Source of the DNA: an uncultured bacterium
GTDB lineage: Bacteria; Muiribacteriota; Ozemobacteria; Ozemobacterales; Ozemobacteraceae
Direction: 5' to 3'
Assembly (NCBI GenBank): GCA_937949615.1
Contig: CALEDQ010000004.1
Span: 326,326-390,325, forward strand
Length of the DNA stretch: 64,000 nt
Shown: positions 34,858 to 63,326 of the stretch, one piece after another
Layout: every line of letters begins with the position of its first letter
How positions within the stretch are numbered: position 1 is the first letter of the stretch
Position numbers and translations under genes: made by a program
The notes under the pieces: generated by a model
What the model saw: the letters and a program-made list of their open reading frames with translations, nothing else
Told to the model about the DNA's origin: nothing
Database searches by the model: none

Positions 34858-34862
34858 CGCAA
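34843..34862. repeat. attL: 20-bp direct repeat TCCCTGCACCCCAGCCGCAA (3' end of tRNA-Gln), repeated at 52870-52889
   Basis: Exact 20/20 match between the two positions, read directly from the sequence. Confidence 0.85.
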
Positions 34863-43624: not shown

Positions 43625-43664
43625 GTTATGCTTCCAAAGCGCAGTAATAACAGGTTTTTTCCGG

Positions 43665-43749
43665 CAAATGTTCGGAGCTCGACGACAAATGTACAGAGCT
43701 CGAAGCTAAATGTGCGGAGTTCGAGAACAAATGTTCAGAGCTCTGTTCG
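43665..43749. repeat. Four tandem imperfect 21-22-bp direct repeats (cAAATGTnCrGAGyTCGAnnn) in the hsdR upstream region
   Basis: caaatgttcggagctcgacga / caaatgtacagagctcgaagct / aaatgtgcggagttcgagaa / caaatgttcagagctctgttcg, lying between hsdR and the GIY-YIG gene. Confidence 0.7.
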
Positions 43750-43777
43750 TAATATTTTGATGTTGTCGTCATAACAT

Positions 43778-44629
43778 TCATTCCTGGGCCTGGGCTTCCT
43801 GAATTTCTTTGAGCGTTTTACCGTTCTTGGTTTTCCATGCAGTGCGCCCATTGGCAGAACGGCCCAGAACTACTCCGGCAGCGGTTGATGGTGAGTTGAA
43901 CAGATAATCCTGAGTGAAGACGTAATCATCGCCAGCAGCTTTCAACACACCATTTTCAACTAAAACTGCCCGCAAAAGCTTTATATAATGACCGCAAGAC
44001 GGTGATTCAGCTTTCGAAGATCCGCTGTCAGACTTTACTACGAAACCATCTGAAGTTTCCTGGCCCTCGGCCTTTATGCCCTTTCCTGACAGATAAAGAG
44101 TTTTACCGCTTTGAGGTGAGCTTGCGGCTGCGGAAAACACACTCAGACCCAACAACGGACAGCACAGCAGAATCTCAGACAGAAAACCCTCGGCATCAGC
44201 AGCGTCAGCTTCTGACAGTGAAGGCAAAGTCGGAACATTGCCGTTATCGAGCAGGCATCTTTTTGCTTTGGTTGCCAGTTCAACCAGGCGTGACTCCAGA
44301 AACTGAACATGGGCCTTGTTGAGATTTTCGTCTTTACTGGTAAAGGCGATGCAGCTGGTCCAGAAGTCTTTTTTGGCCGCGTGCTGTTCAAGTCTGGGCT
44401 TTATCGGGTCGCCTTCGCCGACGTAAATGCGCTGTAAACTGGACTCTTCGGCCGGGCCGACCAGAATATAAACCCCGGTGCGCGAAACTTCACGGCGCTG
44501 CCGGGCTTCCACCATCAGGGCCCTGGGAATAACAATTCCCGCCCCGCTCCAGTTCGATTTCTCGATAGTGCGCAATCCGTCAGGATCACCACCTGGCAGA
44601 AATATCTTGATTGAATACGGTCTTTTCAT
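43778..44629 (-). CDS. GIY-YIG nuclease-family protein with a DUF4357-like C-terminal region, embedded between hsdS and hsdR
   Basis: GVYILVG-x11-YVGEG is a GIY-YIG motif. Conserved HAAKKDFW. Start overlaps the hsdS stop. Confidence 0.65.
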   Translation of the reverse strand: MKRPYSIKIFLPGGDPDGLRTIEKSNWSGAGIVIPRALMVEARQRREVSRTGVYILVGPAEESSLQRIYVGEGDPIKPRLEQHAAKKDFWTSCIAFTSKDENLNKAHVQFLESRLVELATKAKRCLLDNGNVPTLPSLSEADAADAEGFLSEILLCCPLLGLSVFSAAASSPQSGKTLYLSGKGIKAEGQETSDGFVVKSDSGSSKAESPSCGHYIKLLRAVLVENGVLKAAGDDYVFTQDYLFNSPSTAAGVVLGRSANGRTAWKTKNGKTLKEIQEAQAQE

Positions 44630-45975
44630 ACGCCAGCCACCTCTTTCATGGCCTCGGGCACGCTCAACTCACCACTCAGCAACTTCGGCAACAGCGTATC
44701 GCGCAGGTTGGCGAGGGTGCAGGATTCTTTGCGGAGTTGGAGACACTCCCTCAGAAGCGGCTGGACTACGCGCTCAAAGCCTTCAAGGATTCCATCCGGC
44801 GGCTGCAAAATCGAAATTTGGCGAAGGTGCATAGGGCCGAAGTTCAATTGCACGCTACCCGCCGCCAACGCGAACATTTCAGCAAGGAAGTATTCCGACT
44901 GAAGGAAGCCCCAGACATACCCAAGGCCAACAGCGCCAAACCCGCGCATCCGAATAATCGACGTGTTGAGCATGACGGGCAGATGGTCAGCACGAACGAT
45001 GGCAAGGCGCCCGAGTGTCCCGGAGGTGGAAATCACTATGTCATCCGTTTGCAGCGCAAAGTGTCTGTATGTCTTTTCGAACTCCTCAAGGCTGATGCAG
45101 TTCGCTTTCGCAATGTCCAAGTCGCCGTCTACGATACAACGGATATTGAGGAACTTCATTCCTTCGTCGCGGTATTGCCAATTCCTCAACCCGGGCCCCT
45201 CTAGGAAGTCTATGGCTTCGGGCAATCCAATGACCTTCCATCCCTTCGGAATGTGTCCGAGCGGTGAGTCTTCCAAGTGCTCGGGGAAGAGGGCGGCAGT
45301 GGCGGCGTCCATGCCCGCGGGCTGGCGACCGTCGAGTTTGGCCCTGACCGGGTCGAAATCGACAAACCAGCTCTTGAACAACGCCCGCGCCATCGCTTCA
45401 AGCGTCACATTCATCTTCCGGTTAAGCTCGATCTTATCATCCAGCGTCCCCAGCACATGCGCAATCGCCTTCTGCTCTGTAAAAGTTGGCAACTCAATTG
45501 GGGCACCGAGAATCTGAGAAGGCGAGAGATTTGCTTGACCTCCTGAGCTTGTAGCAATCGCGATGAATTCGTTCTGGTAGAACTGAGAACTTAGTGAAAA
45601 CGCGAAGAATCTCGAATAAATCTCAGCTCCCCTCTTCGGACGTAGAATTCCAACACGTTGATTAAGCAGAAATGGTCCGTCCTCATTAAATTGTGCAACC
45701 TTACCAACCCAAGTGTCGGGAGAACCGTCGAAGCGATTACCCGACATTGTGATTAACAAGTCGCCCTTTTGAACTATCTTATCGCTGCGGGTTTTTAGGA
45801 AATCAGCAGAAACATAGCTCAAGTCATCCAAGAGCATCCGGTTGGCTTTTACGTTCTTGATTTTGATGACGGGAATTCCGTTCTCAAGGAATTCACCGCT
45901 CTTAAATGCATACCCCCCTACCAAGTCAAAGATATCACCAATTCGAGCAGTTTCCCATTCAGCCGCCATAACCAA
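44626..45975 (-). CDS. hsdS: Type I RM specificity subunit (HsdS) with two target-recognition domains
   Basis: Two TRD halves plus conserved coiled-coil regions ([25 protein letters not shown]; [14 protein letters not shown]). Overlaps hsdM. Confidence 0.85.
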
Positions 45976-47530
45976 GGCCTTTCAGATTTTTGCGAATTTC
46001 GGCTTCGAGCTTTGCAGACTCTGAGAACTGGGTGTTCAGTTCGGTGACGAGGCGGGTCATCTTTTCTTCGAAGGGTTCGTCGTCGGCTTCGACTTCTTCG
46101 GCACCGACGTAGCGGCCCGGTGTCAGCACGTAGCCATGACCGGCTATTTCGTCTGTTTTGGACGACTTGCAGAATCCGGCGATGTCTTCATATTTGCTGG
46201 CAGCTTTTTCGCCTCTCCAGGCCTGGTAGGTCAATACGATTTTCTTAATATCTTCGTCGGTAAGTTCGCGATGAACGCGGTCGACCAGCATACCCATCTT
46301 GCGGGCATCGATAAACAGAGTTTCACGATTTCTGCTGCGATAATGGCCGTTATTTTTATTTTTTGTCAAAAACCACAGACATACCGGAATCTGCGTGCTG
46401 TAAAACAGCTGGCCGGGTAACGCTACCATGCAGTCGACGAGATCTGCTTCGACAATAGCTTTCCTGATATCGCCTTCGCCAGACTGATTCGATGACATGC
46501 TGCCATTAGCCAGAACGAAGCCTGCCATTCCATCAGGAGCCAGGTGATGAATAAAATGCTGCACCCAGGCATAGTTGGCGTTGCCTTTCGGCGGTGTGCC
46601 ATATTTCCAGCGCACATCGTCATCGACGCGGTGCCAGTCTGAATCATTGAAAGGCGGATTTGCCAGCACGAACTGCGCCTTGAGATCTTTATGCAGATCG
46701 CGCCTGAAAGTATCGGCGTGTTCCGGGCCAAAATCGGCTTCGATACCACGAATTGCCAGGTTCATGATCGCCAGGCGCCGGGTGGTAGCGTTGCTTTCCT
46801 GACCGTAGATGCTGATATCGCCAATGCGACCACCGTGTTCGACGACGAACTTTTCCGACTGCACAAACATGCCGCCTGAACCACAGCAGGGGTCATATAC
46901 GCGGCCCTTGTAAGGCCCGAGCATTTCTACGAGCAGCCTGACAATACATGACGGGGTATAGAACTGGCCGCCGTTCTTGCCTTCGGCACTGGCAAACTGG
47001 GTAATAAAATATTCATATACGCGCCCGAGCACGTCTTTTGCACGATTCGCAGCATCACCGAGGCCGATAGTGCCAATAAGATCGATCAGCTCGCCGAGCC
47101 GGTGTTTGTCGAGGGCAGGACGGGCATAATCTTTTGGCAGCACGCCTTTCAATCTCGGGTTGTCACGCTCGATGGCTACCATGGCATCATCGACAGTTTT
47201 TCCGATTGTTGGCTGTTTGGCGTTGGCCTGCAGGTGTGACCAGCGGGCTTCTTTCGGCACCCAGAAAACATTTTCGGCGCGATATTCGTCGGCATCTTCC
47301 GGATCGGCACCAGCATAATCGCCTTCGCCGGCAAGCAGCTTCGCGCGCATTTCCTCGAATGAGTCTGAGATATACTTCAAAAATATCAGACCGAGCACGA
47401 CGTGCTTGTATTCAGCCGCATCCATGTTGTTGCGCAGTTTGTCTGCAGCCAGCCAGAGCTTGGCCTCAAAACCGATATTTGCCGTAGATTCCCCGTTTGC
47501 TGCTTTTGCCTGTTTTTTTGCCATGACCAT
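45959..47530 (-). CDS. hsdM: Type I RM DNA methyltransferase subunit (HsdM, N6-adenine)
   Basis: FYTP motif. [11 protein letters not shown] is an AdoMet-binding motif. LANPPFN is the catalytic NPPF motif. Confidence 0.9.
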
Positions 47531-49764: not shown

Positions 49765-50517
49765 TTATGCGGCCTCCTTGAGTTCGAGTTCTTTGCTGAA
49801 AGCGTTGATGACGGTATCGAGATCTGAGTCTTTGATCTCTGCGGATTCTTTGATGGGCCGGTCGAGGCCGATAAGATTACCGATGACAGCTTTCATGTCA
49901 TCAGGTGTCTGACCGAGTTTGGCAGAGAGATTGAACAGGAGTCTGATCTTCTGCACTCTCTTCTGAGCTTGTTCACCCTTGTTATCGGGTTTCTGAGGGG
50001 CCTTTTCTGCTTTGTCAGCTGATTCCGATTTCGGGGTGCTGCTGACGCGGGTTTTCTTGTGTTCGTCAAGATTGGTTACCTGCGAGGGTTTTGCAGGTTT
50101 CTGGGTATTTTCTTTTACCTGGTTCTTGGGCATTGCTGCCTCTGCGTCATCGTCTTCGTCGGAGACAACGCCAACCAGACTGGCGAGGGAATAGCGTCTG
50201 GCATAGGTAATGGCGCTACCAATAGCCTGAGGGCTGTCTTTTATGATGTTCATAGACAGCTGATCACTGATGAATTCGCCTGATGCGTGAACGAGCATGG
50301 TGGTCACTATCACGCGGTCTTCGATTACTGAAGTTCCCTGAATTACGGCGATCTGATTCTGGGAAAGAGCGGTGCGGCACGCTTCCATGATACTGGCAAG
50401 TGTGGCATATTTGCTTCTGAAGTGCGGGTTCTGGGCGTCGAATGACGCGGGTTTCATTTCTCCCTGGGCTTTAGCAAGGGCTTCTGAAAGTTTTCCGATT
50501 GTTTCACTTCGTTCCAT
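49765..50517 (-). CDS. ERF-family single-strand annealing protein (phage recombinase)
   Basis: NPHFRSKYATLASIMEA...AITYARRYSLASLVGV resembles the Erf superfamily. SD GGAGG before ATG (MERSE). An alternative upstream ATG extends the ORF to 50589. Confidence 0.6.
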   Translation of the reverse strand: MERSETIGKLSEALAKAQGEMKPASFDAQNPHFRSKYATLASIMEACRTALSQNQIAVIQGTSVIEDRVIVTTMLVHASGEFISDQLSMNIIKDSPQAIGSAITYARRYSLASLVGVVSDEDDDAEAAMPKNQVKENTQKPAKPSQVTNLDEHKKTRVSSTPKSESADKAEKAPQKPDNKGEQAQKRVQKIRLLFNLSAKLGQTPDDMKAVIGNLIGLDRPIKESAEIKDSDLDTVINAFSKELELKEAA

Positions 50518-50585
50518 ATTATTTTCCTCCTGAAAGTAAGAAGGGGAGCAGCTTTTGATGGCCACTCCCCGGGTTACGGTAAGTT

Positions 50586-51606
50586 TCATGCAGCATGAGC
50601 GATATATTCCGCTGCTGCGTCTTCGAGCTGTTTACGGTCTTCTGGTATGAGACCGAGCTGTTCGTGTGTTTCAAAATCTGTAATTGCCTGGGCAACGCCG
50701 AACATGGTGTCATGCGGTTCCTTGTTGTAGGCGAGCATGAAAGGCTCTACAAGTTTGGCAGGCATGTGAGCCCGCTTAATAATTGCTTCGATGGCAAGCT
50801 GGGGATTGGCGATACGCTTTTCCTGCGACTGCCTGAGGTTGTTCACTGCAATGCTGAGCCTTTCGGGCACATGCTGCAGGACATGGGAAATCTGATTCCA
50901 GAGATCTGCTTCTGGGCGGCCACTATGGCGACGTCTGAGAAGAGTAGCGCCTGCAATCGGCGCTGTTAGCCCGTTTGAACAAATCAGCCTTGCAAGACAA
51001 AGGCTAATACTGAGGCTGGCATAACCAACCCCTGAGTTCTGAATGAAAATACCACCCCAGATAGTGCCAACGGCAGAGCTGCCGTGGTTATCGATGGGGT
51101 CGCCGATCCTGATTGAGTAGGATACGGTTTTGTCGGTGAAGTTTGCTCTGATCACTGGGATCTGAGATTCGCTCTGTTGAAGCGAATGAAGTATCAGGCT
51201 GCTGAGCATAGCGTCTGATACCGGACTGTAGGTAGGGCTGACGAATGCTTTGAGGGTTCCGTCAGCATTGGCTTGTGTAAGGTCGGTCAGTCTGAGTTTG
51301 ATCTGACCGGTGGCGCGGCTGAAGCGCCTGTTAAGTTCGTATGCTTTTTCGTCATTGCTGGCATTTTCGAACCAGCGGTCGAAGCGGCAGCCGAGAAGAT
51401 TTGCTATCTGTCTGCGGCTCCAGGGGGTGAGGGCGTAGTTGCCTTCACTGGGAACAACGATGTTGAGATCGTCGTTCATTTTAAGATCTGAGAGATTCGT
51501 GATTATATCGGGTATGTCGTGTGATTCCACGGTGCCGATATGGTCTGCAAGGGTCTGCAGGGTCATAGGTCTGTTGTCTTTCAATGTGTTGAAAGTGAGT
51601 AACATA
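50586..51606 (-). CDS. Hypothetical phage/island protein (~340 aa; an upstream in-frame extension to 51761 is possible)
   Basis: SD AAGGAGA before ATG (MLLTF). Stop overlaps the ERF region. No confident family assignment; possibly DUF932-like. Confidence 0.4.
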
Positions 51607-53208: not shown

Positions 53209-54252
53209 TCATTCTTTGTCCTCGTCGCTTTTGTCTTCCTGCAGAAGCTTTTTTATGTGGCGGTCAAAGTCTGATTCAAACAGGCGATCCTGAACGATGC
53301 GGTATTTTTCAAATTCACTTTCGGCATGATCTTTTGCTATTTTTGCCGTAACTTTGCCGGGGTTCTGCAGAATTTCACGATCATCGAATTCGAGAAACAT
53401 ATCGAGTCGCTTTGCCCAGTCTTCCATGGTCATGGGTATTTTGCGACGGGCCCGTTCTTCAGCCAGATCGAGATAGGCGTTCACTATACGGCCCAGCGAT
53501 TCAAGCTCTTCTTTACTGAGATAGTTTTTGGCAACCACCACATCGGTTTTTACGATTTTGCCATCGGGGGCTTTTTCCCAGGAGGTCAAGCCCATTTTGG
53601 GCTTCTTGCTGTCAGCGCGTTCCATGATCAGTTCTGCGGCCGTATGACCATGAATGGCGAAATGCAGCTTGTTCTGAACTTTGGCAAAAAACTCTCTGGT
53701 TGTTGGTGCATCGCGGTTATAGTCGACGCTGGTGGAGTAAATATCAGTGATTTTCTGATAAAACCGGCGTTCGCTGAGCCTGATTTCCCTGATTTCTTCG
53801 AGCAAGTGTTCAAAGTAATCTTCGCCAAGAAAAGCGCCGTTTTCCATGCGCTTTTTATCGATCACATAGCCCTTTATTGAAAATTGCCTGAGAACATTGG
53901 TAGCCCATTGTCTGAACTGGATAGCACGTTCGGAATTAACACGAAAACCGATGGCAATGATGGCATCGAGATTGTAGTGATCGATTTTGCGGGAAACCTT
54001 TCTATTGCCTTCCTGTTGAACTATTAGGAAATTCCTAATAGTTGCTTCCCGGCTTATTTCGCCGCTTTCAAAGAGTTTCGTCATGTGTTCATTGATTGTT
54101 GGTATGGTAACTGCGAACAACTCGGCTATCAGTCGCTGAGTCAACCAGACGGTTTCACCTTCCACCCGAACTTCAATACTATTTTCACCGGCCTGGCCGG
54201 TAAATATCAGAAACTCGGCAGTGCTGTTACGAATCTGCAGTTGTTTTTTCAT
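53209..54252 (-). CDS. RhuM-family (virulence protein RhuM / DinD-like) protein
   Basis: IRNFLIVQQEGNRKVSRKIDHYNLDAIIAIGFRVNSERAIQFRQWATNVLRQF is a conserved RhuM core. Confidence 0.7.
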   Translation of the reverse strand: MKKQLQIRNSTAEFLIFTGQAGENSIEVRVEGETVWLTQRLIAELFAVTIPTINEHMTKLFESGEISREATIRNFLIVQQEGNRKVSRKIDHYNLDAIIAIGFRVNSERAIQFRQWATNVLRQFSIKGYVIDKKRMENGAFLGEDYFEHLLEEIREIRLSERRFYQKITDIYSTSVDYNRDAPTTREFFAKVQNKLHFAIHGHTAAELIMERADSKKPKMGLTSWEKAPDGKIVKTDVVVAKNYLSKEELESLGRIVNAYLDLAEERARRKIPMTMEDWAKRLDMFLEFDDREILQNPGKVTAKIAKDHAESEFEKYRIVQDRLFESDFDRHIKKLLQEDKSDEDKE

Positions 54253-54809: not shown

Positions 54810-54855
54810 TTTTTCGTTATGTTACTTTCGGGGCGAAAAGTAACATAACGAAAAA
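54810..54855. promoter_or_regulatory. Perfect 19-bp inverted repeat TTTTTCGTTATGTTACTTT-(8)-AAAGTAACATAACGAAAAA upstream of hsdM-2
   Basis: Arms are exact reverse complements, flanked by T- and A-runs. Could act as a bidirectional terminator or an operator. Confidence 0.65.
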
Positions 54856-54952
54856 GTCACTCCAGGGCGCAATTTTGGATAAAATTGCTGACAAGGGCGC
54901 GGGCAGAGAGTAATATGGTGGCACGACACCATAAAAATTGCAGAGGTAGCCA

Positions 54953-56410
54953 ATGCTGACCGGGGAAATACGCAACAAAGTCGATGCACTGTGGACCGCA
55001 TTCTGGACCGGCGGCATCGCCAATCCGCTGACCGTTATCGAACAGATTTCATACCTGCTGTTCATCAAGCGTCTCGATGATATTCACACGCTGAAAGAAC
55101 TGCAGGCCAACCGAACCGGCAAGCCGGTCAAAGACCCGATATTCAACGATAAACAACAGCATCTGCGCTGGTCGAAGTTCAAGCACCTTGAACCGGGCGA
55201 AATGCTCGGGCTATTTCAGACAGAAGTTTTTCCGTTCATCAAGAACATGGCGAGCGCCTCTGACACCACATTTGCCAGAGCCATGGCCGATGCCACCTTT
55301 ATTATACCGAAAGCCAGTCTGCTGGCACAGGCGGTCGAACTCATCGAGGATATTCCGATGAAAGACCGTGATACCAAGGGCGATGTTTACGAATACATGC
55401 TCAGCAAGCTTTCTACTGCCGGCCAGAACGGCCAGTTCAGAACGCCGCGCCACATCATCAAAATGATGGTCGAGCTGATGCAGCCGAAAATCAAAGATTT
55501 CATCTGTGACCCGGCCTGCGGCACCGCCGGCTTTCTGGTTGCGGCGGGTGAATACATCAGAACCCACCACGAAATCGACTATCACGCGGCCGAAAACCGC
55601 GAGCATGTGAACGGCCGCCTGTTCAACGGTTTCGACTTCGACACGACCATGCTGCGCATCGGCAGTATGAACATGATGATGCATGGCGTCGAGAACCCGC
55701 ATATCATGTATAAAGACTCGCTGGCAGACAGCAACAAAGAGTCTGAGCAATACACCCTGATTCTTGCCAATCCGCCGTTCAAGGGCAGTCTCGCCGAAAA
55801 CGAAGTTTCGAAGAAGCTGCTCGAAACCGTAAAAACCAAGAAAACCGAGCTGCTGTTTCTGGCCCTGATGCTGCGCCTGCTGAAGGCCGGCGGCCGCTGT
55901 GCCGTCATCGTTCCTGACGGGGTGCTTTTCGGCTCATCAAAAGCCCATCTCGACATTCGGAAAGAGATCATCGACAATCATCGCCTTGAAGCGGTCATTT
56001 CGCTGCCTGCCGGGGTTTTCAAGCCTTACGCCGGCGTCAGTACCGGCATCATGGTTTTCACCAAAACCGGCACCGGTGGCACTGACAATGTCTGGTTCTA
56101 CGACATGCAGACCGATGGTTTCAGTCTTGACGACAAGCGCACCGAGATTGCCGACAACGATATTCCGGATGTTATCAGGCGCTGGCATAATCTCGCGGCC
56201 GAAAACAGCCGCAAGCGCACCGACAAATCTTTCCTGGTGCCCGTCGATGACATCAGAAAAGAAAAATACGACCTGTCGATCAACCGCTACAAACAGATCG
56301 TCTACGACGAAGTCAAGTATGACAAGCCCAAAGAAATCCTGGCCGAAATCATGCAGATCGAAAAAGAAATCCAAAAAGGCCTCGAAGAACTCGACGGTAT
56401 GCTGGGATGA
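54953..56410 (+). CDS. hsdM: Type I RM DNA methyltransferase subunit (HsdM), second system
   Basis: HsdM_N-like N-terminus. QFRTPRHI. DPACGTAGFL. ILANPPFKG is the NPPF catalytic motif. Confidence 0.9.
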   Translation: MLTGEIRNKVDALWTAFWTGGIANPLTVIEQISYLLFIKRLDDIHTLKELQANRTGKPVKDPIFNDKQQHLRWSKFKHLEPGEMLGLFQTEVFPFIKNMASASDTTFARAMADATFIIPKASLLAQAVELIEDIPMKDRDTKGDVYEYMLSKLSTAGQNGQFRTPRHIIKMMVELMQPKIKDFICDPACGTAGFLVAAGEYIRTHHEIDYHAAENREHVNGRLFNGFDFDTTMLRIGSMNMMMHGVENPHIMYKDSLADSNKESEQYTLILANPPFKGSLAENEVSKKLLETVKTKKTELLFLALMLRLLKAGGRCAVIVPDGVLFGSSKAHLDIRKEIIDNHRLEAVISLPAGVFKPYAGVSTGIMVFTKTGTGGTDNVWFYDMQTDGFSLDDKRTEIADNDIPDVIRRWHNLAAENSRKRTDKSFLVPVDDIRKEKYDLSINRYKQIVYDEVKYDKPKEILAEIMQIEKEIQKGLEELDGMLG

Positions 56411-57174
56411 AGCTAATTTACATCGATGAATCAGGGGACACAGGTTTTAATCTGAATGACCAGCAACAGCCTATATTTGTTTTAACAGCCTTAGTAATAC
56501 CAGATTTAATGTGGCCACATCTTGAAAGCGAATACAGGTATGCAATCAATGAATTTTTTCCTGATGGAATACCGGAAGATTTTGAGCTTCATGTTACAGA
56601 CATGAAGGCTAGAAAAAACCATTATAAAAATTTCGACAAAGAACTTGGTGCAAAGTTTAGAGACAGAGTCCTTGAATTTATTTCCGGGCTGGGAGTAAAG
56701 ATTTTTTACCGAAGAATAATAAAAAAACAGTTTCAAAAGTTTTGCGAAAAGCGTTTCGGTATTGTTAGGCTGAGCCCATATCTCATGGCGCTTTCGATGC
56801 TTTGGTTTGAAATTAACAAATATCTTAACGCCCAAGAAGATTTTGGTATGCTGATCTTTGATGACAACAAACATTATTTATCAGACGTAGAAAAAGCCAT
56901 TCGGTCTCTTCGACTTGATCTTAGATTCATGCTGTCGAACAATAAGCTTATTGAAAAAGGCTTCTTTGTTGATTCAAAAAAAAGCATTCCAATTCAATTA
57001 ACAGACCTGCTTGCTTACTATATCAGAAAATATGAGGAACATAAGTTTGGGAAAACAGTAAGCAAAACTGACCAAGACTGCTTTTCTGCGCTAGAAGGAA
57101 TTGCACAGATGGGAACAAAAGTACCAGCCGAATTTAATGAGTTGTTAAAATGGGCAGAAGAAAATTGGAGATAA
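56407..57174 (+). CDS. DUF3800 family protein inserted between hsdM and hsdS
   Basis: N-terminal LIYIDESGDTGF is the signature DUF3800 start. Start overlaps the hsdM stop (ATGA). Confidence 0.7.
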   Translation: MKLIYIDESGDTGFNLNDQQQPIFVLTALVIPDLMWPHLESEYRYAINEFFPDGIPEDFELHVTDMKARKNHYKNFDKELGAKFRDRVLEFISGLGVKIFYRRIIKKQFQKFCEKRFGIVRLSPYLMALSMLWFEINKYLNAQEDFGMLIFDDNKHYLSDVEKAIRSLRLDLRFMLSNNKLIEKGFFVDSKKSIPIQLTDLLAYYIRKYEEHKFGKTVSKTDQDCFSALEGIAQMGTKVPAEFNELLKWAEENWR

Positions 57175-57289
57175 AAAAGCGGCCGCCTCTTTCGATGGAA
57201 CCGTCAATTGACGATTCACTGGCAGTCGCTGTTCAGAATATACGCAATGCGTGTAAATTTGTCAACAAGTATGAAAGGAAGGGCTGCGT

Positions 57290-58465
57290 ATGAGTTGGCC
57301 TGTAAAGCCATTAGGGCAAATTTGCGGAATAGTAGCAGGCCAGTCGCCGCCATCAGAAACTTACAACAAAAATCGGGATGGCATGCCTTTTTTTCAGGGA
57401 AAAGCAGATTTTGGAGAACTATTTCCAACCGTCAGAACATGGTGCTCAAAGCCAAACAAAGTAGCCGAACCGAATGACATTCTGATCTCAGTGAGAGCAC
57501 CAGTAGGAGCAACGAATATCTGTAATGTTACTGCCTGTATTGGTCGCGGTTTGGCTGCCATAAAACCTTCAGAAAAAGTTGTCCAGAAGTATTTACTGTA
57601 TTACTTTCGTTATTTTGAGCCTATTTTATCAGCATCAGGGAACGGTGCAATTTTTTCAGCAATAACAATGTCTGATTTAAAGGAAGTCCAAATCCCACTG
57701 CCGCCACTGGAAGTGCAGAAAAAGATTGCGGCGGTGCTGGAGAAGGCCGATGAGTTGCGACTCAAGCGTGAAGAACAGATAAAGCGCCTCGACGACCTGC
57801 TGCAGGCAACCTTCCTCGACATGTTCGGCGACCCCGTCACCAACCCGAAGGGCTGGCCCGTGAAAAAACTTCAGGATTTATTAAAGGATAAAAAAGACCT
57901 TGTGGACGGCCCATTTGGCTCTTCTGTAAATACCCAAACAGACTATATTGAAAATGGTGAGATACCAGTTATCAGAACAAAAAATGTTGGACTTCTTTGT
58001 TTTAAGCCAGAAGACCTGAAATTCATGACTCGCGAAAAGTATGAAACGGTCAAGAGAAGCCAAGTTCTACCGGGCGATATAGTTCTTACAAAAGTTGGGA
58101 CAATTGGTAACTTATGTCTATTTCCATCTGTTTTTGAAGAAGCAGTGTTGTCAACAACAGGTAGTTGTAGGATCAGGCCCAACAAAGATGCGTTGGAACC
58201 GCTCTTTTTGCTTCATTATCTATACCATTATCGCCCCAGAATGTTGGAAATTGCTTCAACAGCTGTTCAAGCCTTTCTAAATATGAATCATATTAAAAAC
58301 TTTGATATCTTTATTCCGCCCGCTGATAGGCAGAAAAGGTTTGGCGAAGTTTGCAATAGTATTACGTTAAAAGCCAGTAAGTTGGAAAACGGGAGTTCTA
58401 GGATTTCTAGTCTCTTCAACTCCCTCATGCAGCGGGCGTTCAAGGGGGAGCTGGAACTGAGATAA
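57290..58465 (+). CDS. hsdS: Type I RM specificity subunit (HsdS), second system
   Basis: Two TRDs with conserved spacer and coiled coil (LPPLEVQKKIAAVLEKADELRLKRE; LMQRAFKGELEL). Confidence 0.85.
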   Translation: MSWPVKPLGQICGIVAGQSPPSETYNKNRDGMPFFQGKADFGELFPTVRTWCSKPNKVAEPNDILISVRAPVGATNICNVTACIGRGLAAIKPSEKVVQKYLLYYFRYFEPILSASGNGAIFSAITMSDLKEVQIPLPPLEVQKKIAAVLEKADELRLKREEQIKRLDDLLQATFLDMFGDPVTNPKGWPVKKLQDLLKDKKDLVDGPFGSSVNTQTDYIENGEIPVIRTKNVGLLCFKPEDLKFMTREKYETVKRSQVLPGDIVLTKVGTIGNLCLFPSVFEEAVLSTTGSCRIRPNKDALEPLFLLHYLYHYRPRMLEIASTAVQAFLNMNHIKNFDIFIPPADRQKRFGEVCNSITLKASKLENGSSRISSLFNSLMQRAFKGELELR

Positions 58466-58530
58466 CTGGCGGGGCGAAATAGGTGTTGATAAAATGTTGT
58501 AAACAGATAGAATAAAGCATTGAGAGCAGC

Positions 58531-61500
58531 GTGATGAACAACGATAATACACAGAGCGATAAACAGCAGAATCAGAGACAGAGTAACTTCAGTTTTATCG
58601 ATAATAAACTGAAGCAGATCAGAGAGTTTGCGCAGAAAGCCGAACTGCGCGGCCGGCTCGATGCCAGGTATGCGTGCTTTCAGGCCAGGCTGACGGCAGA
58701 AACTGCTCTTAAATGGATTTTCAAAGCTGATCCCGAGCTGTCTCTGCCGTATAACACAATGCTCAGCAATCTGATCAATGATGCGGGTTTCCAGAAGATT
58801 GCCCCGATTCAGGCCAAACGCAGTCTCACCATCATTCAGAAATACGGCAACCTGGCCGCGCACAGCGAACATGCAATAATGGCCCAGGATGCCGTTCTGG
58901 TCATTAAGCAGCTGCACAGCTTTCTATTCTGGCTGCACCGCACCTATTTCGATGTGAACCTGCAGTCAGACTTCGACGAAAAACTCATTCCCGATGCCGG
59001 TGATATTGCCAAAACCAGCAGAAACAAGATTCTTGAGCTCGAACAAAAACACGAAGACGAAGAGAAAAAGCTCAAAGAAGCCCTTGAGGCAGAAAAAGCA
59101 GATAAAGAAGCCTATAAGGCAAAGCTGGCAACCCAGGAAGCAGAAATTGCGCAGCTGAAAGCTCAGATCGCAGCCAAAAAGGCTGAAGCAGAGGCTGTTC
59201 CTGATACACATGATTACTCTGAAGCCGAAACCAGAAAACTGCTTATCGATGTATTGCTGAAGGAAGCAGGCTGGCATAAGGGCTCCCCCGGCCTGAAAGA
59301 AGAATACGAACTCGATGGCGTAGACCGCAACAAGAATTACACCGGCACCGGTTTTGCCGACTACGTTCTCTTCGACGACAACGGCCTGCCGCTCGCGGTC
59401 ATCGAAGCCAAGAAAACCACCAAAGATGCGAAGATCGGCAAATACCAGGCACTCGATTACGCCAACGCCCTCGAAAAGAAGTTCAAGCAGCGCCCGGTCA
59501 TCTTTTATACCAACGGTTACGAAATCTACATCTGGGACGACCACTTCTACCCCGAACGCAAGATTCAGGGCTTCTACAAAAAAGACGAGCTGCAGCTTGC
59601 CATCGAACGCAGAAAAACACGAAAGTCGATTCTCAACCCGGCTATCAACCGCAAAACGGTCGAACGCCCATATCAGCATCTCGCCATTCGGGCAGTTTCC
59701 GAACATTTTGAGACGGGCAATCAAAGAAGAGCCCTGCTGGTTATGGCTACCGGCTCAGGCAAAACCAGACTTACCATCGCTCTGGTCGAAGTGCTGCAGA
59801 AAGCCAACTGGGCCAAGCGCGTGCTGTTCCTCTGCGACCGTGATTCGCTGGTTAAGCAGGCAAAAGGCGCGTTCACGAAGTTCTTGCCGAACTGCCCGGC
59901 GGCTGATTTGAGAGATGCGAAGTCTGACAATCTTTCCAGGGTCTGCCTGTCAACCTATCACACGATGATGAACCTGATCGATGAGTTCAAAGACGGTGAG
60001 AGACTGTTTTCGCCAGGCCATTTCGATCTGCTGGTCATCGACGAGGCTCACCGCAGCATCTATCAGAAGTTCGGAGCGATCTTCGATTACTTTGATTCGT
60101 TCCTGGTCGGCCTGACCGCGACGCCCAGAGATGAAGTCGACAAGAACACCTACCAGATGTTCAACCTGACCAAAGAAGCCGGCCCGGTGTTCGGCTATGA
60201 CCTCGGCGAAGCCATAGATCAGGGCTACCTGCTGAATTATTACAAGGCGGCAGTGTCGACGAAACTCAGCCGCGAAGGCCTTACCTACTCGAAACTCAGC
60301 GACGAAGACAAAGAAGAATACGACCGGCACTTTATCGACGAAGTCACCGGCGAAAGGCCCGAAAAAGTCGGTAAAGAGGCGATCAACAAATGGCTGTTCA
60401 ATATTCCGACCGTCGACAGCTTTTTAAAAGATCTCATGGAAAAGGGCATCAAAATCGCAGGCGGCGACCGGCTTGGCAAAACCATCATTTTCGCGCGTAA
60501 CAGCGACCATGCAAAGTTTATAGTCGAAAGATTCGACGCCAATTATCCGCAATATAAAGGGCATTTCTGCGCTCAGATCGATTACACGCTTGGCAAAGAC
60601 GCCGAAGGCATGATCGACAATTTCAAGAAAGCCGACGGCATGCCACAGATAGCGGTTTCGGTAGACATGCTCGATACCGGAATCGATGTTCCTGAGGTTG
60701 TTAATCTCGTGTTTGCCAAACCCGTTTATTCGAAGGTGAAGTTCTGGCAGATGATCGGCCGCGGCACGAGAAAATGCGAGAATCTGTTCGGCCCCGGTGA
60801 TGACAAGAAGTGCTTCTACGTCTTCGATTACTGCGAAAATTTCGAATTCTTCGAGACCAACCCCGATGGCGTTGAGAGTAACGCGGTGATACCGTTGAGC
60901 CAGCGGATCTTCAGAAATCGTCTGCTACTGGCCGACCTGCTGCAGGATGACAGCAGCGAAGATTCGGTGGCAATCAGAAAAGAGTTTCTGGATAACCTGC
61001 ATGAATATGTGTCGGGCATGTGCGATGCGAACTTTCTGGTGCGGCCGCATCTGCAAAGCGTCACGAAGCTGAAAAACCGGGAAACCTGGGAAAAGCTCGA
61101 TTCTGAGCTGAAGGCGGCGGTGGCGAAAACTATCTCAGGCTTACCCAGCCAGCTGGAACAGGATGATGAATATGCCAAACGATGGGATCATCTGCTGCTG
61201 AAAACAGAGCTGGCGCTGCTTGAGAAGTCTGGCGAATACGTTTCCCTGATGAAGAAGATCAGAAAGATTGCCGACAAGCTCGAAGACAAGACGACGATAC
61301 CAGACGTCAAAAAACAGCTGGAATTCATTCAGGCGATCAAGACCGATGAATTCTGGGAAGGCATGAACCTTAAAGCTCTCGAAGAGATCAGAAAGCGTCT
61401 CAGACTGCTGATCAAATACATCGATCCGGGCGAGAAGCAGATCGTTTATTCGAACTTCAGCGACACCCTGACTGCGCCTGCAGTATTCGAGCCAGGCACC

Positions 61501-62031
61501 GAGGCATTCAAGAACGACGAACTGGCAGCCTACCGACAGAAAATGAACGCTGTAATCGATCAAAACCTCGATAAAGAGGTGATCTGGAAGGTCAGATGTA
61601 ATCGACCTCTGACTGCTGCCGACCTGAAACAGCTCGAAAAAATTCTCGAACTCAGCACATCAGAAGACAAAGAGTTGTTCAGGGAAGCTTATCAGAGCGG
61701 TTTCCGGGCAAAGACCGGCACAGACAACTCCAGTCTTGAGCTGCTGATCAGGTCTATCGTCGGCCTGGATCGAAAAGCGGTCGAAAAAGAATTTGCGGAT
61801 TTTATCGAGAAATCGAACCTTACCTCATTACAACTGGCCTTTGTGAGCAAGATCATCGACTACTTCGCCGAAGACGGCTTTGTCAGGGATGACATTCTCT
61901 ATGAACCGCCATTCAGCGACATGTATCACGACGGCCCCGAGGGCCTGTTCGGCGACCGCGTCGAAACCCTCTTCGCCCGTATCCAGCGATTAAACGGCCT
62001 GAAATCTGCCGACCGCCCGGCAAAGAATTGA
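58531..62031 (+). CDS. hsdR: Type I restriction enzyme R subunit (HsdR) with an N-terminal DUF4145-like extension
   Basis: Nuclease core GFADYVLFDDNGLPLAVIEAKK. Helicase motifs MATGSGKT and DEAHRS. An extra ~230-aa N-terminal domain plus a coiled coil. Confidence 0.9.
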   Translation: MMNNDNTQSDKQQNQRQSNFSFIDNKLKQIREFAQKAELRGRLDARYACFQARLTAETALKWIFKADPELSLPYNTMLSNLINDAGFQKIAPIQAKRSLTIIQKYGNLAAHSEHAIMAQDAVLVIKQLHSFLFWLHRTYFDVNLQSDFDEKLIPDAGDIAKTSRNKILELEQKHEDEEKKLKEALEAEKADKEAYKAKLATQEAEIAQLKAQIAAKKAEAEAVPDTHDYSEAETRKLLIDVLLKEAGWHKGSPGLKEEYELDGVDRNKNYTGTGFADYVLFDDNGLPLAVIEAKKTTKDAKIGKYQALDYANALEKKFKQRPVIFYTNGYEIYIWDDHFYPERKIQGFYKKDELQLAIERRKTRKSILNPAINRKTVERPYQHLAIRAVSEHFETGNQRRALLVMATGSGKTRLTIALVEVLQKANWAKRVLFLCDRDSLVKQAKGAFTKFLPNCPAADLRDAKSDNLSRVCLSTYHTMMNLIDEFKDGERLFSPGHFDLLVIDEAHRSIYQKFGAIFDYFDSFLVGLTATPRDEVDKNTYQMFNLTKEAGPVFGYDLGEAIDQGYLLNYYKAAVSTKLSREGLTYSKLSDEDKEEYDRHFIDEVTGERPEKVGKEAINKWLFNIPTVDSFLKDLMEKGIKIAGGDRLGKTIIFARNSDHAKFIVERFDANYPQYKGHFCAQIDYTLGKDAEGMIDNFKKADGMPQIAVSVDMLDTGIDVPEVVNLVFAKPVYSKVKFWQMIGRGTRKCENLFGPGDDKKCFYVFDYCENFEFFETNPDGVESNAVIPLSQRIFRNRLLLADLLQDDSSEDSVAIRKEFLDNLHEYVSGMCDANFLVRPHLQSVTKLKNRETWEKLDSELKAAVAKTISGLPSQLEQDDEYAKRWDHLLLKTELALLEKSGEYVSLMKKIRKIADKLEDKTTIPDVKKQLEFIQAIKTDEFWEGMNLKALEEIRKRLRLLIKYIDPGEKQIVYSNFSDTLTAPAVFEPGTEAFKNDELAAYRQKMNAVIDQNLDKEVIWKVRCNRPLTAADLKQLEKILELSTSEDKELFREAYQSGFRAKTGTDNSSLELLIRSIVGLDRKAVEKEFADFIEKSNLTSLQLAFVSKIIDYFAEDGFVRDDILYEPPFSDMYHDGPEGLFGDRVETLFARIQRLNGLKSADRPAKN

Positions 62032-62088: not shown

Positions 62089-62511
62089 ATGCTTTTATTA
62101 GATCTTCTTACTGACGATGAATATATATGGAAGTTTTATGTATTGGCCAGATCTGAGGAAGATTGCGAATTACACGACTTCCTGAATTCATTGTCTGTAA
62201 AAGATAAGGAGGCCTGGAGCGGTTTGCTGGCAATTATGGAAACAATGGCGGCAGCACCTGAAGGGCCGAGGCTGATGGATTCACTGTCTCACGAAATGGG
62301 AAGCGCAAAATATAAAATTTACAGATTTGAAAAAGGCAGATTAAGAATCGCCTGGTTTTACGGAGAAGGTAATAAAGTCGTCATCTGTTCGCACGGGTAC
62401 TACAAAAAATCTCAAAAGACTCCGGAAAAAGAAATAAAAAAGGCAGAAAAGAATGTTGAGGCCTACCTCAGAGCGGTAGAAGGAAAAGGTGAAAGAAATG
62501 GGAAAAATTGA
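62089..62511 (+). CDS. higB: HigB/RelE-superfamily toxin (Gp49-like)
   Basis: KIYRFEKGRLRIAWFY...VICSHGYYKKSQKTPEKEIKKAEK is a Gp49/HigB pattern. Overlaps the downstream antitoxin gene. Confidence 0.7.
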   Translation: MLLLDLLTDDEYIWKFYVLARSEEDCELHDFLNSLSVKDKEAWSGLLAIMETMAAAPEGPRLMDSLSHEMGSAKYKIYRFEKGRLRIAWFYGEGNKVVICSHGYYKKSQKTPEKEIKKAEKNVEAYLRAVEGKGERNGKN

Positions 62512-62920
62512 CTTCAGAAAGCTCATAAATGAAGCAAAAGAAAGCGAAGCATACCTGGTGGAAAAGGCTTCCATGTCTTTTCTGGTTAAGGTCTGGAAGC
62601 TGATGCGGGAAAAAGAAATAACCCAGAAACAGCTTGCAGAAAGAGCCGGCCTGAAGGAGTCGTATATCTCGCGAATCTTTTCAAGAAAAGGCAATCTTAC
62701 TCTTGCAACCATGGTTAAACTGGCAAAATGCCTCAGTGCTGATATCGAGGTTGGGGTTGAAGCCACAAAAACAGCCTCGAAAAAGCTCGATTATATTTTT
62801 GAAAAACAAGCTCCCACATCTGAAGAAAAAGTAATTTATACAAACATTCACCACCTCAATACCAGTCACTGGAAAACCAGCGAGGATGAAGGCTATGAAA
62901 GAATCAGTCCTGCAGCTTAG
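62489..62920 (+). CDS. higA: HTH-XRE antitoxin (HigA-like) with a ~50-aa C-terminal extension (putative chaperone-addiction region)
   Basis: LMREKEITQKQLAERAGLKESYISRIF is an XRE-family HTH. A C-terminal tail lies beyond the HTH. Overlaps both neighbouring genes. Confidence 0.7.
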   Translation: MKEMGKIDFRKLINEAKESEAYLVEKASMSFLVKVWKLMREKEITQKQLAERAGLKESYISRIFSRKGNLTLATMVKLAKCLSADIEVGVEATKTASKKLDYIFEKQAPTSEEKVIYTNIHHLNTSHWKTSEDEGYERISPAA

Positions 62921-63326
62921 AGACTACTTTATAACTAAAACATCTGTTGAACTGAACCAGGAATTCAGACTTGATGAACCATCAAGTCTGAATGTTGGGG
63001 ACTTAAGCCTGGAGATCAGCTCAAATACTCTTGCTCACCCCGACACCAGAGAAGAAATTTTCAAAGTTGAACTGAGAGTCGCAGTAAAAAGCGAAAATCT
63101 TAAAAAATGCAATATCCCCTATTGTTTCGATATTTCCTCAGTAGGAATTTTCGTGCTTGGGGAAAGCTGCCAGGAAAATAGAGAAAAAGTCGCGGTAATA
63201 AATGGCGCGTCAATACTGTTTTCATCTGTAAGAGATTATCTCGCCGGAATTACCGGGCAAGGCCCTTTTCGGCGAATAGTTCTGCCAACAGTTGATCTGA
63301 GAAGCCTGGAAAAGAACGAAAAATGA
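62886..63326 (+). CDS. SecB-like chaperone (third component of the toxin-antitoxin-chaperone module)
   Basis: Collinear with E. coli SecB: EIFKVELRVAVKSE...CFDISSVGIFVLGE...ILFSSVRDYLAGITGQGPFRRIVLPTVDL. Confidence 0.65.
   Translation: MKAMKESVLQLRDYFITKTSVELNQEFRLDEPSSLNVGDLSLEISSNTLAHPDTREEIFKVELRVAVKSENLKKCNIPYCFDISSVGIFVLGESCQENREKVAVINGASILFSSVRDYLAGITGQGPFRRIVLPTVDLRSLEKNEK

What the first reader, a model, noticed from the sequence alone, without database searches (positions are those of the whole stretch)
54953..62031. Second Type I RM system with a DUF3800 gene inserted between hsdM and hsdS, and a DUF4145-HsdR fusion
The hsdM-hsdS junction is a known landing site for abortive-infection or anticodon-nuclease-type effectors. 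Here it holds an uncharacterised DUF3800 protein that is translationally coupled to hsdM. HsdR additionally carries an N-terminal DUF4145-like domain. Both features suggest an augmented, possibly novel defense configuration.
Basis: partly seen in the sequence, partly recalled or inferred. Interest (0 to 1): 0.7.

Follow-up and report, generated by a model that had tools for sequence, protein, structure and literature searches.

The report
Nuclease-RNA cassette inside restriction operon
A standard type I restriction-modification operon has a small inserted cassette between two of its genes: an RNase H-like nuclease gene (DUF3800) plus a roughly 60-nucleotide structured RNA gene, absent from the RNA family catalogue, that accompanies every relative of the nuclease examined, which offers a compact system for studying a protein-RNA pairing whose function has been unknown since 2017.

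Summary
hsdM (54953-56410), a DUF3800 gene (56407-57174, ATGA overlap with hsdM), hsdS (57290-58465) and a 1165/1166-aa hsdR (58531-62031) form one operon on a tRNA-Gln island.

The DUF4145-HsdR "fusion" is the normal architecture of a large HsdR family, and its HEPN arginine is missing here.

DUF3800 is not a lone gene. It is one half of an AT-rich cassette of about 0.88 kb. The other half is a convergent small-RNA gene (minus strand, about 57230 to 57168) with its own sigma-70 promoter, a three-way-junction fold and a U-tail that overlaps the DUF3800 stop codon.

- A covariance model, nhmmer or inspection finds this RNA at the same place in the window and all 87 relatives examined.
- It shows strong covariation and matches no Rfam 15 family.
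- Orphan RNAs exist. In this sample no DUF3800 lacks the RNA.
- The cassette sits in type I, type III-like and SNF2/Eco57I-type operons in about one third of species. It is tightly coupled to the upstream gene there. It also occurs in housekeeping neighbourhoods.

The parts
54888..54916 (+). Probable promoter of the RM operon (CTGACA, 17 nt spacer, TAATAT).
   Evidence: Consensus scan. These hexamers are the only upstream stretch conserved with L090, L215 and L087. Function is inferred.
54953..56410 (+). hsdM, the type I N6-adenine methyltransferase (485 aa).
   Evidence: Pfam N6_Mtase and HsdM_N. PADLOC MTase_I 639 bits.
56407..57174 (+). DUF3800 gene (255 aa). RNase HII-like fold. Its start overlaps the hsdM stop (ATGA). 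GC is 35.8% against 52.7% for hsdM.
57168..57230 (-). Small structured RNA gene, convergent with DUF3800. P1 is AGCGACUGCC/GGCGGCCGCU. P2 is GAAUCGUC-AAUU-GACGGUUC. P3 is UC-GAAA-GA. A U-tail follows and overlaps the DUF3800 stop codon (57172-57174).
   Evidence: Covariance model R1 scores 71.8 bits, E 1e-14. Covariation. MFE fold gives the same three helices, z -2.6. No Rfam match. Transcription itself is not shown.
57237..57265 (-). Promoter of the small RNA. The -35 box TTGACA is at 57265-57260 and the -10 box TATATT is at 57242-57237. The predicted start is near 57230.
   Evidence: 11 of 12 consensus match. The same -35, -10 and T-rich upstream element sit at fixed distance in 67 loci from several phyla.
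57268..57292 (+). Degenerate duplicate of the hsdM 3' end (GAAGG-GCTGCGTATGA). It forms the right border of the cassette and supplies the hsdS ribosome-binding site and start.
   Evidence: Comparison of both junctions with the empty site in L215 and with L087, where the repeat TGCTGGGATGAGCTGG is almost exact.
57290..58465 (+). hsdS, the specificity subunit (391 aa, two target-recognition domains).
   Evidence: Methylase_S in two stretches. PADLOC Specificity_I 278 bits. The N-terminal MSWP is shared with L215 hsdS.
58531..62031 (+). hsdR (1166 aa from GTG 58531, probably 1165 aa from ATG 58534). It has an N-terminal DUF4145/HEPN-like domain (aa 44-127) lacking the canonical Arg, a coiled coil, the HSDR_N nuclease domain (229-338), an SF2 helicase (378-750) and EcoEI_R_C (1000-1153).

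Best explanation
The locus is an ordinary type I RM operon (hsdM-hsdS-hsdR) of the common DUF4145-HsdR/EcoEI_R_C family.

A self-contained, AT-rich cassette of about 0.88 kb is inserted exactly at the hsdM|hsdS overlap. The cassette has two parts:
- a DUF3800 gene encoding a metal-dependent RNase HII-like nuclease;
- a convergent sRNA gene of about 60 nt with its own promoter and U-tail terminator.

The sRNA folds into a three-way junction, and its 3' end overlaps the DUF3800 stop codon. The protein-RNA pair is the functional unit.

I propose (inferred) that the RNA keeps the nuclease silent, in the manner of a toxin-antitoxin pair. It could do so by binding the protein, or by pairing with the read-through DUF3800 mRNA. 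In RM operons the nuclease is made in step with the restriction enzyme, through translational coupling to the upstream R or M gene. It would then act as a second-line, abortive-infection-type effector when RNA supply or the RM complex is disturbed by an invader.
For: Shown:
- Gene order, domains and the ATGA overlap.
- An empty site and alternative cargo occur in the same RM family. A duplicated hsdM terminus flanks the cassette. Cassette GC stays near 36% whether the host operon is 43% or 54%.
- The spacer after DUF3800 is more conserved than the flanking genes: 82% against 68% and 64% nucleotide identity to L087.
- The RNA lies on the antisense strand at the DUF3800 stop in 73 of 88 sources by covariance model at E<0.03. 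The other 15 were found by nhmmer or inspection. No off-target hit scored above 22 bits in 1.1 Mb.
- 85.9% of cells are paired, against 26-51% when partners are slid. 13 pairs show double changes. RNAalifold recovers P1, P2 and much of P3 independently.
- A conserved -35/-10 promoter and a U-tail are present. G-U pairs outnumber A-C 74 to 35 on this strand.
- An RNA-first scan gave 50 of 80 metagenome loci with a convergent DUF3800 ORF, most ending within about 40 nt of the RNA's 3' end. 14 had a true RNA but no DUF3800, at sites where relatives hold the full cassette. The reverse case, DUF3800 without the RNA, was never seen.
- 25-26 of 80 species loci sit inside type I, M-S-fused type I, SNF2-NOV_C/Eco57I, Res/Mod-like or DUF1156 operons. 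One more is beside a TOTE helicase and one beside Cas3.
- All four closer relatives in which an RM context was found are type I embedded.
- The gap to the upstream RM gene is -4 to +24 nt in 26 of 28 scored loci. In housekeeping loci it is mostly 44-154 nt.

From the literature: DUF3800 is linked to retron type VII, to Cas12a2/a3 and Cas13 loci, and to 11 other RNA motifs.
Against: - No experiment shows transcription of the RNA, nuclease activity, toxicity or phage defence.
- 21 of 80 species loci lie in one conserved housekeeping neighbourhood (TauE-DUF3800-RNA-PCMT-RecG-TrkH). They form one clade, which looks like long vertical inheritance and is unusual for a toxin-antitoxin or defence gene.
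- Most remaining loci are between plain metabolic genes.
- PADLOC gives only a 21-bit partial match, to PDC-S51.
- There was no pattern hit in viral contigs, no plasmid hit, and one distant phage hit.
- Orphan RNAs kept inside RM-like operons could mean the RNA has a role of its own.
- A strongly structured RNA with few free nucleotides fits protein binding. That does not tell an inhibitor from a cofactor.
Confidence: 0.5

Rival explanations
1. Ribonucleoprotein reading. The small RNA is an obligatory subunit (scaffold, activator or substrate mimic) of the DUF3800 nuclease rather than its inhibitor. The RNP would process RNA-DNA hybrids, R-loops or structured RNA, either for the cell or alongside restriction enzymes.
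For: - The RNA accompanies every DUF3800 gene of the clade.
- The compact three-way junction has conserved non-Watson-Crick positions, A-C alternating with G-U at two sites.
- The fold is RNase HII-like.
- One clade is syntenic with RecG, an enzyme that acts on R-loops and branched DNA. That role of RecG is from established knowledge.
- Other RNase H-fold nucleases work as RNPs. This is from established knowledge.
Against: - The RNA has no variable segment that could act as a guide.
- Orphan RNAs persist after loss of DUF3800, which is odd for a mere subunit.
- In two near-identical loci an HNH nuclease ORF replaces DUF3800 beside the same RNA. That fits a regulator better than a dedicated cofactor.
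Confidence: 0.2
2. Selfish addiction cassette with no role in defence. The pair is a small toxin-antitoxin-like or otherwise self-propagating element. It lands in many places, and RM operons are merely tolerant, frequently exchanged targets.
For: - The contexts are scattered.
- A duplicated target flanks the insert.
- GC is foreign to the host operon.
- The same RM family carries other cargo at the same junction.
Against: - In RM operons the gene has lost its own upstream spacer and is coupled to the R or M gene in 26 of 28 scored loci.
- It recurs in at least five unrelated R-M architectures, always between the R, M or S genes.
- The wider DUF3800 family is tied to retrons and CRISPR systems.
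Confidence: 0.15
3. Housekeeping enzyme. DUF3800 and its RNA carry out a normal nucleic-acid maintenance task, and their presence in RM operons is incidental.
For: A monophyletic group of 21 species keeps the pair in one syntenic block with PCMT, RecG, TauE and TrkH.
Against: - The family is small and patchy: 414 representatives at E<=1e-3 among 1.84 billion.
- It is absent from 5,426 E. coli genomes at the DNA level and from plasmids.
- It has been horizontally inserted into RM operons.
Confidence: 0.1
4. The conserved spacer is not an RNA gene. It would be a DNA-level site (recombination or operator) or simply a terminator for DUF3800.
For: - The element is nearly palindromic in P2.
- It marks the right side of the insert.
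Against: - Compensatory changes keep three helices.
- A conserved -35/-10 promoter sits at fixed distance on the antisense strand, and a U-tail follows only on that strand.
- On the DUF3800 strand the stem is preceded by an A-run rather than followed by a U-run, so it is not a sense terminator.
Confidence: 0.05

Closest known systems
Genes embedded in type I RM operons (PrrC, RloA/RloB, and the guilt-by-embedding candidates of Payne et al. 2024, bioRxiv 10.1101/2024.01.29.577857)
   Same: A same-strand accessory gene is wedged between hsd genes. The junction is variable among close relatives. One relative (L216) carries RloA/RloB there.
   Different: The cargo here is an RNase H-fold protein plus its own RNA gene. 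It is not an ATPase-nuclease. DUF3800 and PF12686 do not occur in that preprint or its held supplements. PADLOC gives only a 21-bit partial hit.
DUF3800-associated RNA motifs I-XI (Weinberg et al. 2017, PMC5737381)
   Same: A structured RNA lies next to a DUF3800 gene, can be on the opposite strand, and ends in a terminator. Function is unknown.
   Different: This RNA matches no Rfam 15 family, even at E<=10 on 201 nt or E<=1 on nine loci with strong copies. Rfam holds at least DUF3800-I and DUF3800-IX. I could not read the paper's supplementary alignments, so identity with a motif missing from Rfam is not excluded.
DUF3800 in retron type VII and in CRISPR loci (TPR-DUF3800 with Cas12a2/a3; Csx32 with Cas13)
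   Same: The Pfam family is the same. An RNase H-like fold was predicted before. The protein is paired with a structured nucleic acid or an RNA-guided system.
   Different: Here it is a stand-alone 255-aa protein with no TPR or RT fusion. Its partner is a dedicated small RNA, and the host system is restriction-modification.
Type I toxin-antitoxin pairs with convergent, 3'-overlapping antisense RNAs (for example txpA/RatA and bsrG/SR4 of Bacillus subtilis; from my own knowledge) and type III pairs such as ToxIN
   Same: The RNA gene is convergent and its 3' end overlaps the protein gene. Orphan RNAs are tolerated, but the protein is never without the RNA.
   Different: Those toxins are small membrane peptides (type I) or endoRNases with repeat-array RNAs in the same orientation (type III). 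Toxicity and neutralisation are untested here.
RNase HII / H2A / HIII
   Different: Identity is 8-19%. No Pfam RNase H match appears. The equivalence of the third and fourth carboxylates is inferred. Earlier authors noted a rearranged active site.
DUF4145 (HEPN)-HsdR proteins and RAZR
   Same: An N-terminal DUF4145 domain is fused to the REase and SF2 helicase module, as described in 2013. DUF4145 is a working HEPN RNase in RAZR.
   Different: In this HsdR clade the domain falls below the Pfam cut-off. The motif arginine is Q103, and only H111 is kept. RNase activity is therefore doubtful.

Membership tests
Type I restriction-modification system | HsdM with an HsdM_N domain and an N6-adenine methyltransferase domain. 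| tested here: met
   PF12161 58 bits and PF02384 220 bits. PADLOC MTase_I 639 bits.
Type I restriction-modification system | HsdS with two target-recognition domains. | tested here: met
   Methylase_S in two stretches. Specificity_I 278 bits over the full length.
Type I restriction-modification system | HsdR with a PD-(D/E)xK nuclease domain and an SF2 translocase, in the same operon. | tested here: met
   HSDR_N, ResIII, Helicase_C and EcoEI_R_C. REase_I 573 bits. PDB 3h1t at E 1.7e-42.
Pfam DUF3800 (PF12686) | Score above the gathering cut-off. | tested here: met
   78.4 bits against a cut-off of 21, profile positions 1-148 of 149.
Pfam DUF3800 (PF12686) | N-terminal DE motif and C-terminal QxxD motif, as described in PMC7736814. 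| tested here: met
   D7-E8 and Q197-x-x-D200 are conserved in 98-100% of 88 sequences.
Pfam DUF3800 (PF12686) | RNase H-like fold. | tested here: met
RNase HII/H2 enzymes proper | Sequence-level membership in the Pfam RNase HII family, and demonstrated hybrid cleavage. | tested here: not met
   No RNase H family appears at E<=0.01. Identity to structural matches is 8-19%. Activity cannot be tested here.
PrrC/RloC-type anticodon nucleases | N-terminal ABC-type ATPase plus a C-terminal anticodon nuclease domain. | tested here: not met
   The protein has a single DUF3800 domain and no ATPase match.
DUF4145 / HEPN RNase domain (in HsdR) | Pfam PF13643 above its cut-off. | tested here: not met
   18.9 bits against 23.1. 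Homologues at 44-52% identity do pass.
DUF4145 / HEPN RNase domain (in HsdR) | A catalytic Arg and His, spaced as in RAZR (R146, H154). | tested here: not met
   The window has Q103...H111. Arg is present only in some family members, such as P0138.
DUF3800-associated RNA motifs in Rfam (DUF3800-I, DUF3800-IX and others) | A match to one of the covariance models. | tested here: not met
   No DUF3800-* hit at gathering score, at E<=10 or at E<=1.
DUF3800-associated RNA motifs, as a general class (Weinberg 2017) | A conserved structured RNA consistently adjacent to DUF3800 genes. | tested here: met
   Present in all 88 sources. Covariation.
RNA-antitoxin toxin-antitoxin systems (type I or III) | The protein is toxic and is neutralised by the cognate RNA. 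| not testable with these tools
   Only indirect evidence exists: the convergent overlap, and orphan RNAs without orphan proteins.
PADLOC candidate PDC-S51 | A full-length match to the model. | tested here: inconclusive
   21.2 bits, residues 149-221 against model positions 250-320 of 376. The name was not found in the literature held.

The most novel reading that the evidence does not exclude
DUF3800 and its dedicated small RNA form a new kind of RNA-controlled RNase H-fold effector. It would be a two-part protein-RNA immune or addiction module, with either an RNA antitoxin or an RNA activator. Restriction-modification systems of several types would have repeatedly captured it as a built-in fail-safe. 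The other eleven DUF3800 RNA motifs, retron type VII msDNA, and the Cas12a2/a3 and Cas13 associations would then be variations on one mechanism.
Probability: 0.3. Interest if true: 0.8.

Novelty: new variant of a known kind. Interest (0 to 1): 0.6.

Why it matters
DUF3800 proteins have been linked to structured RNAs since 2017, and since then to retrons and to CRISPR types V and VI. No function is known for the protein or for any of the RNAs.

This locus gives a minimal, well-bounded example: a 255-aa protein plus an RNA of about 60 nt with a mapped promoter and terminator. It sits inside a system with an easy read-out, type I restriction.

Natural controls exist in close relatives:
- an empty site (L215);
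- RNA only (L216 and others);
- the cassette at a different junction (L088).

That makes the open question directly testable. The locus also shows that a gene embedded in an RM operon can hide a non-coding partner that protein-based surveys miss. Finally, it removes a false lead, because the DUF4145-HsdR architecture is ordinary.

Tried and rejected
- Known RNA families: Rfam at gathering score on the whole window gave only 3 tRNAs. Rfam at E<=10 around the operon and on the 201-nt spacer gave nothing relevant. Nine related loci gave nothing either.
- Organism and annotated relatives: there was no DNA match in E. coli genomes. There was no protein match in plasmids. One distant DUF3800 (29% identity) occurs in a Pf1-like phage, with no detectable RNA partner.
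- Viral contigs: no exact match to the RNA pattern.
- PADLOC: only weak PDC-S51 and PDC-S26 hits. "PDC-S51" was not found in any paper. DUF3800 was not found in the supplements of the embedding preprint.
- Weinberg 2017 supplements are not held, so the motif could not be compared with DUF3800-II to DUF3800-XI directly.
- Sense-strand reading of the spacer (3' UTR of DUF3800 or 5' UTR of hsdS): it folds well (z -2.7). I rejected it as the primary reading because the promoter and U-tail lie on the other strand.
- The 46-nt palindrome upstream of hsdM as an operator: it is not conserved in related operons.
- PrrC-like anticodon nuclease: no domain support.
- My first strict regular expression found the RNA in only 16 of 88 loci. 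The covariance model showed this was a limit of the pattern and not absence of the RNA.


Full report
**1. What is at the coordinates**

Four co-directional ORFs fill 54953-62031.
- hsdM, 54953-56410: HsdM_N and N6_Mtase.
- A DUF3800 protein, 56407-57174: PF12686, 78.4 bits against a cut-off of 21.
- hsdS, 57290-58465: two Methylase_S stretches.
- hsdR, 58531-62031: HSDR_N, ResIII, Helicase_C and EcoEI_R_C.

These domains come from Pfam. PADLOC agrees, with MTase_I 639 bits, Specificity_I 278 bits and REase_I 573 bits.

The hsdM stop and the DUF3800 start share ATGA. The DUF3800 gene has 35.8% GC, against 52.7% for hsdM and 50.6% for hsdR.

The surroundings look like an integrative island. They comprise tRNA-Gln (34786-34858), a P4-type integrase, a D5-type primase-helicase, and a first type I RM on the minus strand with an embedded DUF4357 gene. 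ERF, RhuM, the second RM and a Gp49/HTH/SecB trio follow.

The exact locus recurs in several metagenome assemblies. Closest relatives are labelled Candidatus Rifleibacterium or Riflebacteria.

**2. The HsdR "fusion" is ordinary**

The DUF4145 hit is sub-threshold, at 18.9 against 23.1 bits. Homologues of the N-terminal 230 aa do carry PF13643.

Of 8000 HsdR candidates scored, 7990 reach E<=1e-50. The listed full-length ones are about 1095-1175 aa, and nearly all at 44-52% identity carry PF13643. The PADLOC REase_I model spans the N-terminal extension.

Fusion of DUF4145 (a HEPN family) to REase-helicase modules was described in 2013 (PMC3710099). DUF4145 is a working HEPN RNase in RAZR, through R146 and H154 (PMC13017515).

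In the window the equivalent positions are Q103 and H111, and the arginine is variable across the family. The domain is therefore a family trait and is probably not a canonical RNase here.

**3. DUF3800 protein**

Literature held in the library gives no function. It is called an RNase H-fold protein associated with:
- retron type VII (PMC7736814);
- Cas12a2/a3, as TPR-DUF3800 (PMC10910872 and PMC13594972);
- Cas13 CASK loci, as Csx32;
- class 2 accessory proteins;
- eleven different RNA motifs (PMC5737381).

D7, E8, E60, D152, E162, E183, Q197 and D200 are conserved in at least 98% of 88 sequences. An intact acidic active site is therefore under selection. Which residues bind metal is inferred.

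The clade is small. It has 414 representatives at E<=1e-3 and 21 at E<=1e-30, among 1.84 billion.

**4. Where relatives live**

Close relatives in which an RM context was found are all inside type I operons.
- L090, 95% identity: M-D-S-DUF4160-DUF2442-R.
- L087, 67% identity: M-D-S-R.
- L088, 46% identity: M-S-D-R, in a different HsdR family.

In one genome per species, 229 relatives were confirmed and the best 80 were kept. I clustered their neighbours and annotated them. The contexts were:
- type I operons: 5 loci, or 6 counting L080, including forms with fused M-S;
- between an SNF2-NOV_C helicase and an Eco57I-type or DUF1156 methyltransferase: 17 loci;
- between a ResIII/TnsA-like protein and an N6_N4 methyltransferase: 3 loci;
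- beside a TOTE primase-helicase: 1 locus;
- beside Cas3: 1 locus;
- a conserved block TauE-DUF3800-PCMT-RecG-TrkH, forming one clade: 21 loci;
- the rest, mostly between unrelated metabolic genes.

In RM contexts the gap to the upstream R or M gene is -4 to +24 nt in 26 of 28 scored loci. In the housekeeping block it is mostly 44-154 nt.

**5. The insertion**

Operons with HsdR 86% identical to the window's show other states of the M|S junction.
- L215 has an empty junction, with hsdM and hsdS overlapping by ATGA. A GIY-YIG gene sits at S|R.
- L216 has RloB and RloA at M|S and an ATPase pair at S|R.

Aligning the junctions shows that the cassette starts at the shared ATGA. It ends with a second, partly decayed copy of the hsdM 3' end. 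That copy is nearly exact in L087 (TGCTGGGATGAGCTGG) and degenerate in the window.

Cassette GC stays near 36% whether the host operon is 43% or 54%.

**6. The hidden partner, a small RNA gene**

The 115-nt spacer between DUF3800 and hsdS is better conserved than the genes around it. Against L087 it is 82% identical, compared with 68% and 64%. A core of it recurs after DUF3800 genes that share only about 41-46% protein identity and lie in other contexts.

Read on the strand opposite to DUF3800, it has these parts in order:
- a TATAAT-like box;
- AGCGAC...;
- a hairpin;
- a tetraloop hairpin;
- ...GCCGCU;
- a U-run.

A covariance model built from 16 copies found it in 67 of 88 sources at E<=1e-3 and in 73 at E<0.03. 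It was always antisense and always at the DUF3800 stop. Nothing else in 1.14 Mb scored above 22 bits. The other 15 copies are divergent and were found by nhmmer or by eye.

On 65 distinct sequences, 85.9% of cells are paired, against 26-51% for slid partners. 13 of 20 pairs show double substitutions, in 200 cells. That alignment was fitted to the model, so I also ran RNAalifold, which recovers P1, P2 and much of P3 on its own. Examples are UA30/CG27/UG8 and GC34/AU29. Two positions alternate between G-U and A-C.

Upstream on the RNA strand, 67 loci share three features at fixed distance from the first nucleotide: a T-rich element, TTGAC at -35 and gATAAT at -12 to -7. G-U outnumbers A-C 74 to 35 on this strand.

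In the window the features are:
- the -35 box at 57265-57260;
- the -10 box at 57242-57237;
- the RNA from about 57230 to 57177;
- the U-tail to 57168, overlapping the TAA at 57172-57174.

The single sequence folds into the same three helices. No Rfam 15 family matches. Rfam holds at least DUF3800-I and DUF3800-IX.

**7. Reverse test**

Scanning metagenomes for an RNA-only pattern gave 119 stretches, of which 80 were kept.
- 50 have a convergent DUF3800 ORF, most ending within about 40 nt of the RNA's 3' end.
- 11 lack enough sequence to tell.
- 5 are chance matches, with no covariance-model hit.
- 14 are good RNAs (36-59 bits) without DUF3800.

The orphan RNAs sit where relatives have the full cassette. 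Examples are the TauE|PCMT site, the position between a PLD-SNF2 helicase and a methyltransferase, and a site next to CstA.

L216 also keeps the RNA (57.9 bits, with compensatory changes in P1) beside RloA/RloB, with no DUF3800 remnant. Two near-identical loci have an HNH ORF in place of DUF3800.

So the RNA can outlive the protein, and in this sample the protein never lacks the RNA.

**8. Mechanism**

Shown:
- an RNase HII-like protein with conserved carboxylates;
- a co-inherited, structured, independently promoted antisense RNA;
- precise insertion into RM operons, with coupling to RM genes.

Inferred:
- The RNA controls the nuclease. The asymmetry of orphans and the convergent 3' overlap resemble RNA-antitoxin systems. 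This comparison is from my own knowledge.
- In the operon the read-through mRNA is fully complementary to the RNA, so antisense control is possible. The conserved junction structure points equally to protein binding.
- Co-expression with R or M subunits suggests a back-up effector.

The main counter-evidence is the vertically inherited housekeeping clade next to RecG. It keeps an RNP or genome-maintenance role open.

**9. Verdict**

Its emphasis on DUF4145 is misplaced, and its abortive-infection idea is plausible but unproven.

The new element is the RNA partner, together with the recurrent capture of the pair by several R-M architectures. I rate this a new variant of known kinds (genes embedded in RM operons, and DUF3800-RNA pairs) and of moderate to high interest because it is directly testable.

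Noticed in passing
window 40466-47530 (minus strand): The first type I RM system (hsdM 45959-47530, hsdS 44626-45975, hsdR 40466-43624, of the T1RH-like_C family) also has an embedded gene. It is a 283-aa DUF4357 protein at 43778-44629, between hsdS and hsdR.
   Followed up: no
window 34786-64000: The region looks like a tRNA-Gln integrative island loaded with defence genes. It holds tRNA-Gln, a P4-type integrase (34989-36314), a D5 primase-helicase (38383-40335), two RM systems, ERF (49765-50589), RhuM (53209-54252) and a Gp49(HigB)/HTH/SecB trio (62089-63326). The far end of the island was not located.
   Followed up: partly
window 54810-54855: A perfect 20-bp-arm palindrome (46 nt) lies just upstream of the RM promoter. 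It is not conserved in related operons, which have other hairpins there, so it is probably an insulating terminator.
   Followed up: partly
L216 3796-3856 (minus); L131, L117, L143, L103, L097, L106, L136, L162: These loci hold orphan copies of the small RNA with no DUF3800 gene. They sit at the same genomic sites where relatives have the full cassette. L216 is a close relative of this very RM operon, and there RloA/RloB occupy the place of DUF3800.
   Followed up: partly
L148 489-1007 and L160 720-1238: The same small RNA has a convergent 149-aa HNH endonuclease ORF in the position normally held by DUF3800. This suggests the RNA can pair with unrelated nucleases.
   Followed up: no
L088 4384-4447, L092, L093, L009, L010: In one sub-clade the DUF3800 ORF runs about 44 nt into the RNA gene. 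The shared C-terminal tail LPPKDGAVS is simply the antisense translation of the conserved RNA.
   Followed up: partly
L007-L035, L054, L095 (for example L011 8001-11600): A conserved block TauE-DUF3800-sRNA-PCMT-RecG-TrkH occurs in Phycisphaerae, Sedimentisphaerales and 'Pirellulales' MAGs. Here the nuclease-RNA pair behaves like a vertically inherited chromosomal gene next to RecG.
   Followed up: partly
L217 (Pseudomonas phage Pf1-ZS-PA-05, PV296013.1) 2073-2930: A filamentous phage carries a distant DUF3800 (29% identity) next to its integrase, followed by 565 nt of non-coding DNA. Neither Rfam nor the new model finds an RNA there.
   Followed up: partly
window 23705-27544: A low-GC stretch (about 39-44%, against about 50-55% for flanking genes) lies between tRNA-Ser (22710-22796) and tRNA-Leu (28118-28201). 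It may be another acquired segment and was not examined.
   Followed up: no
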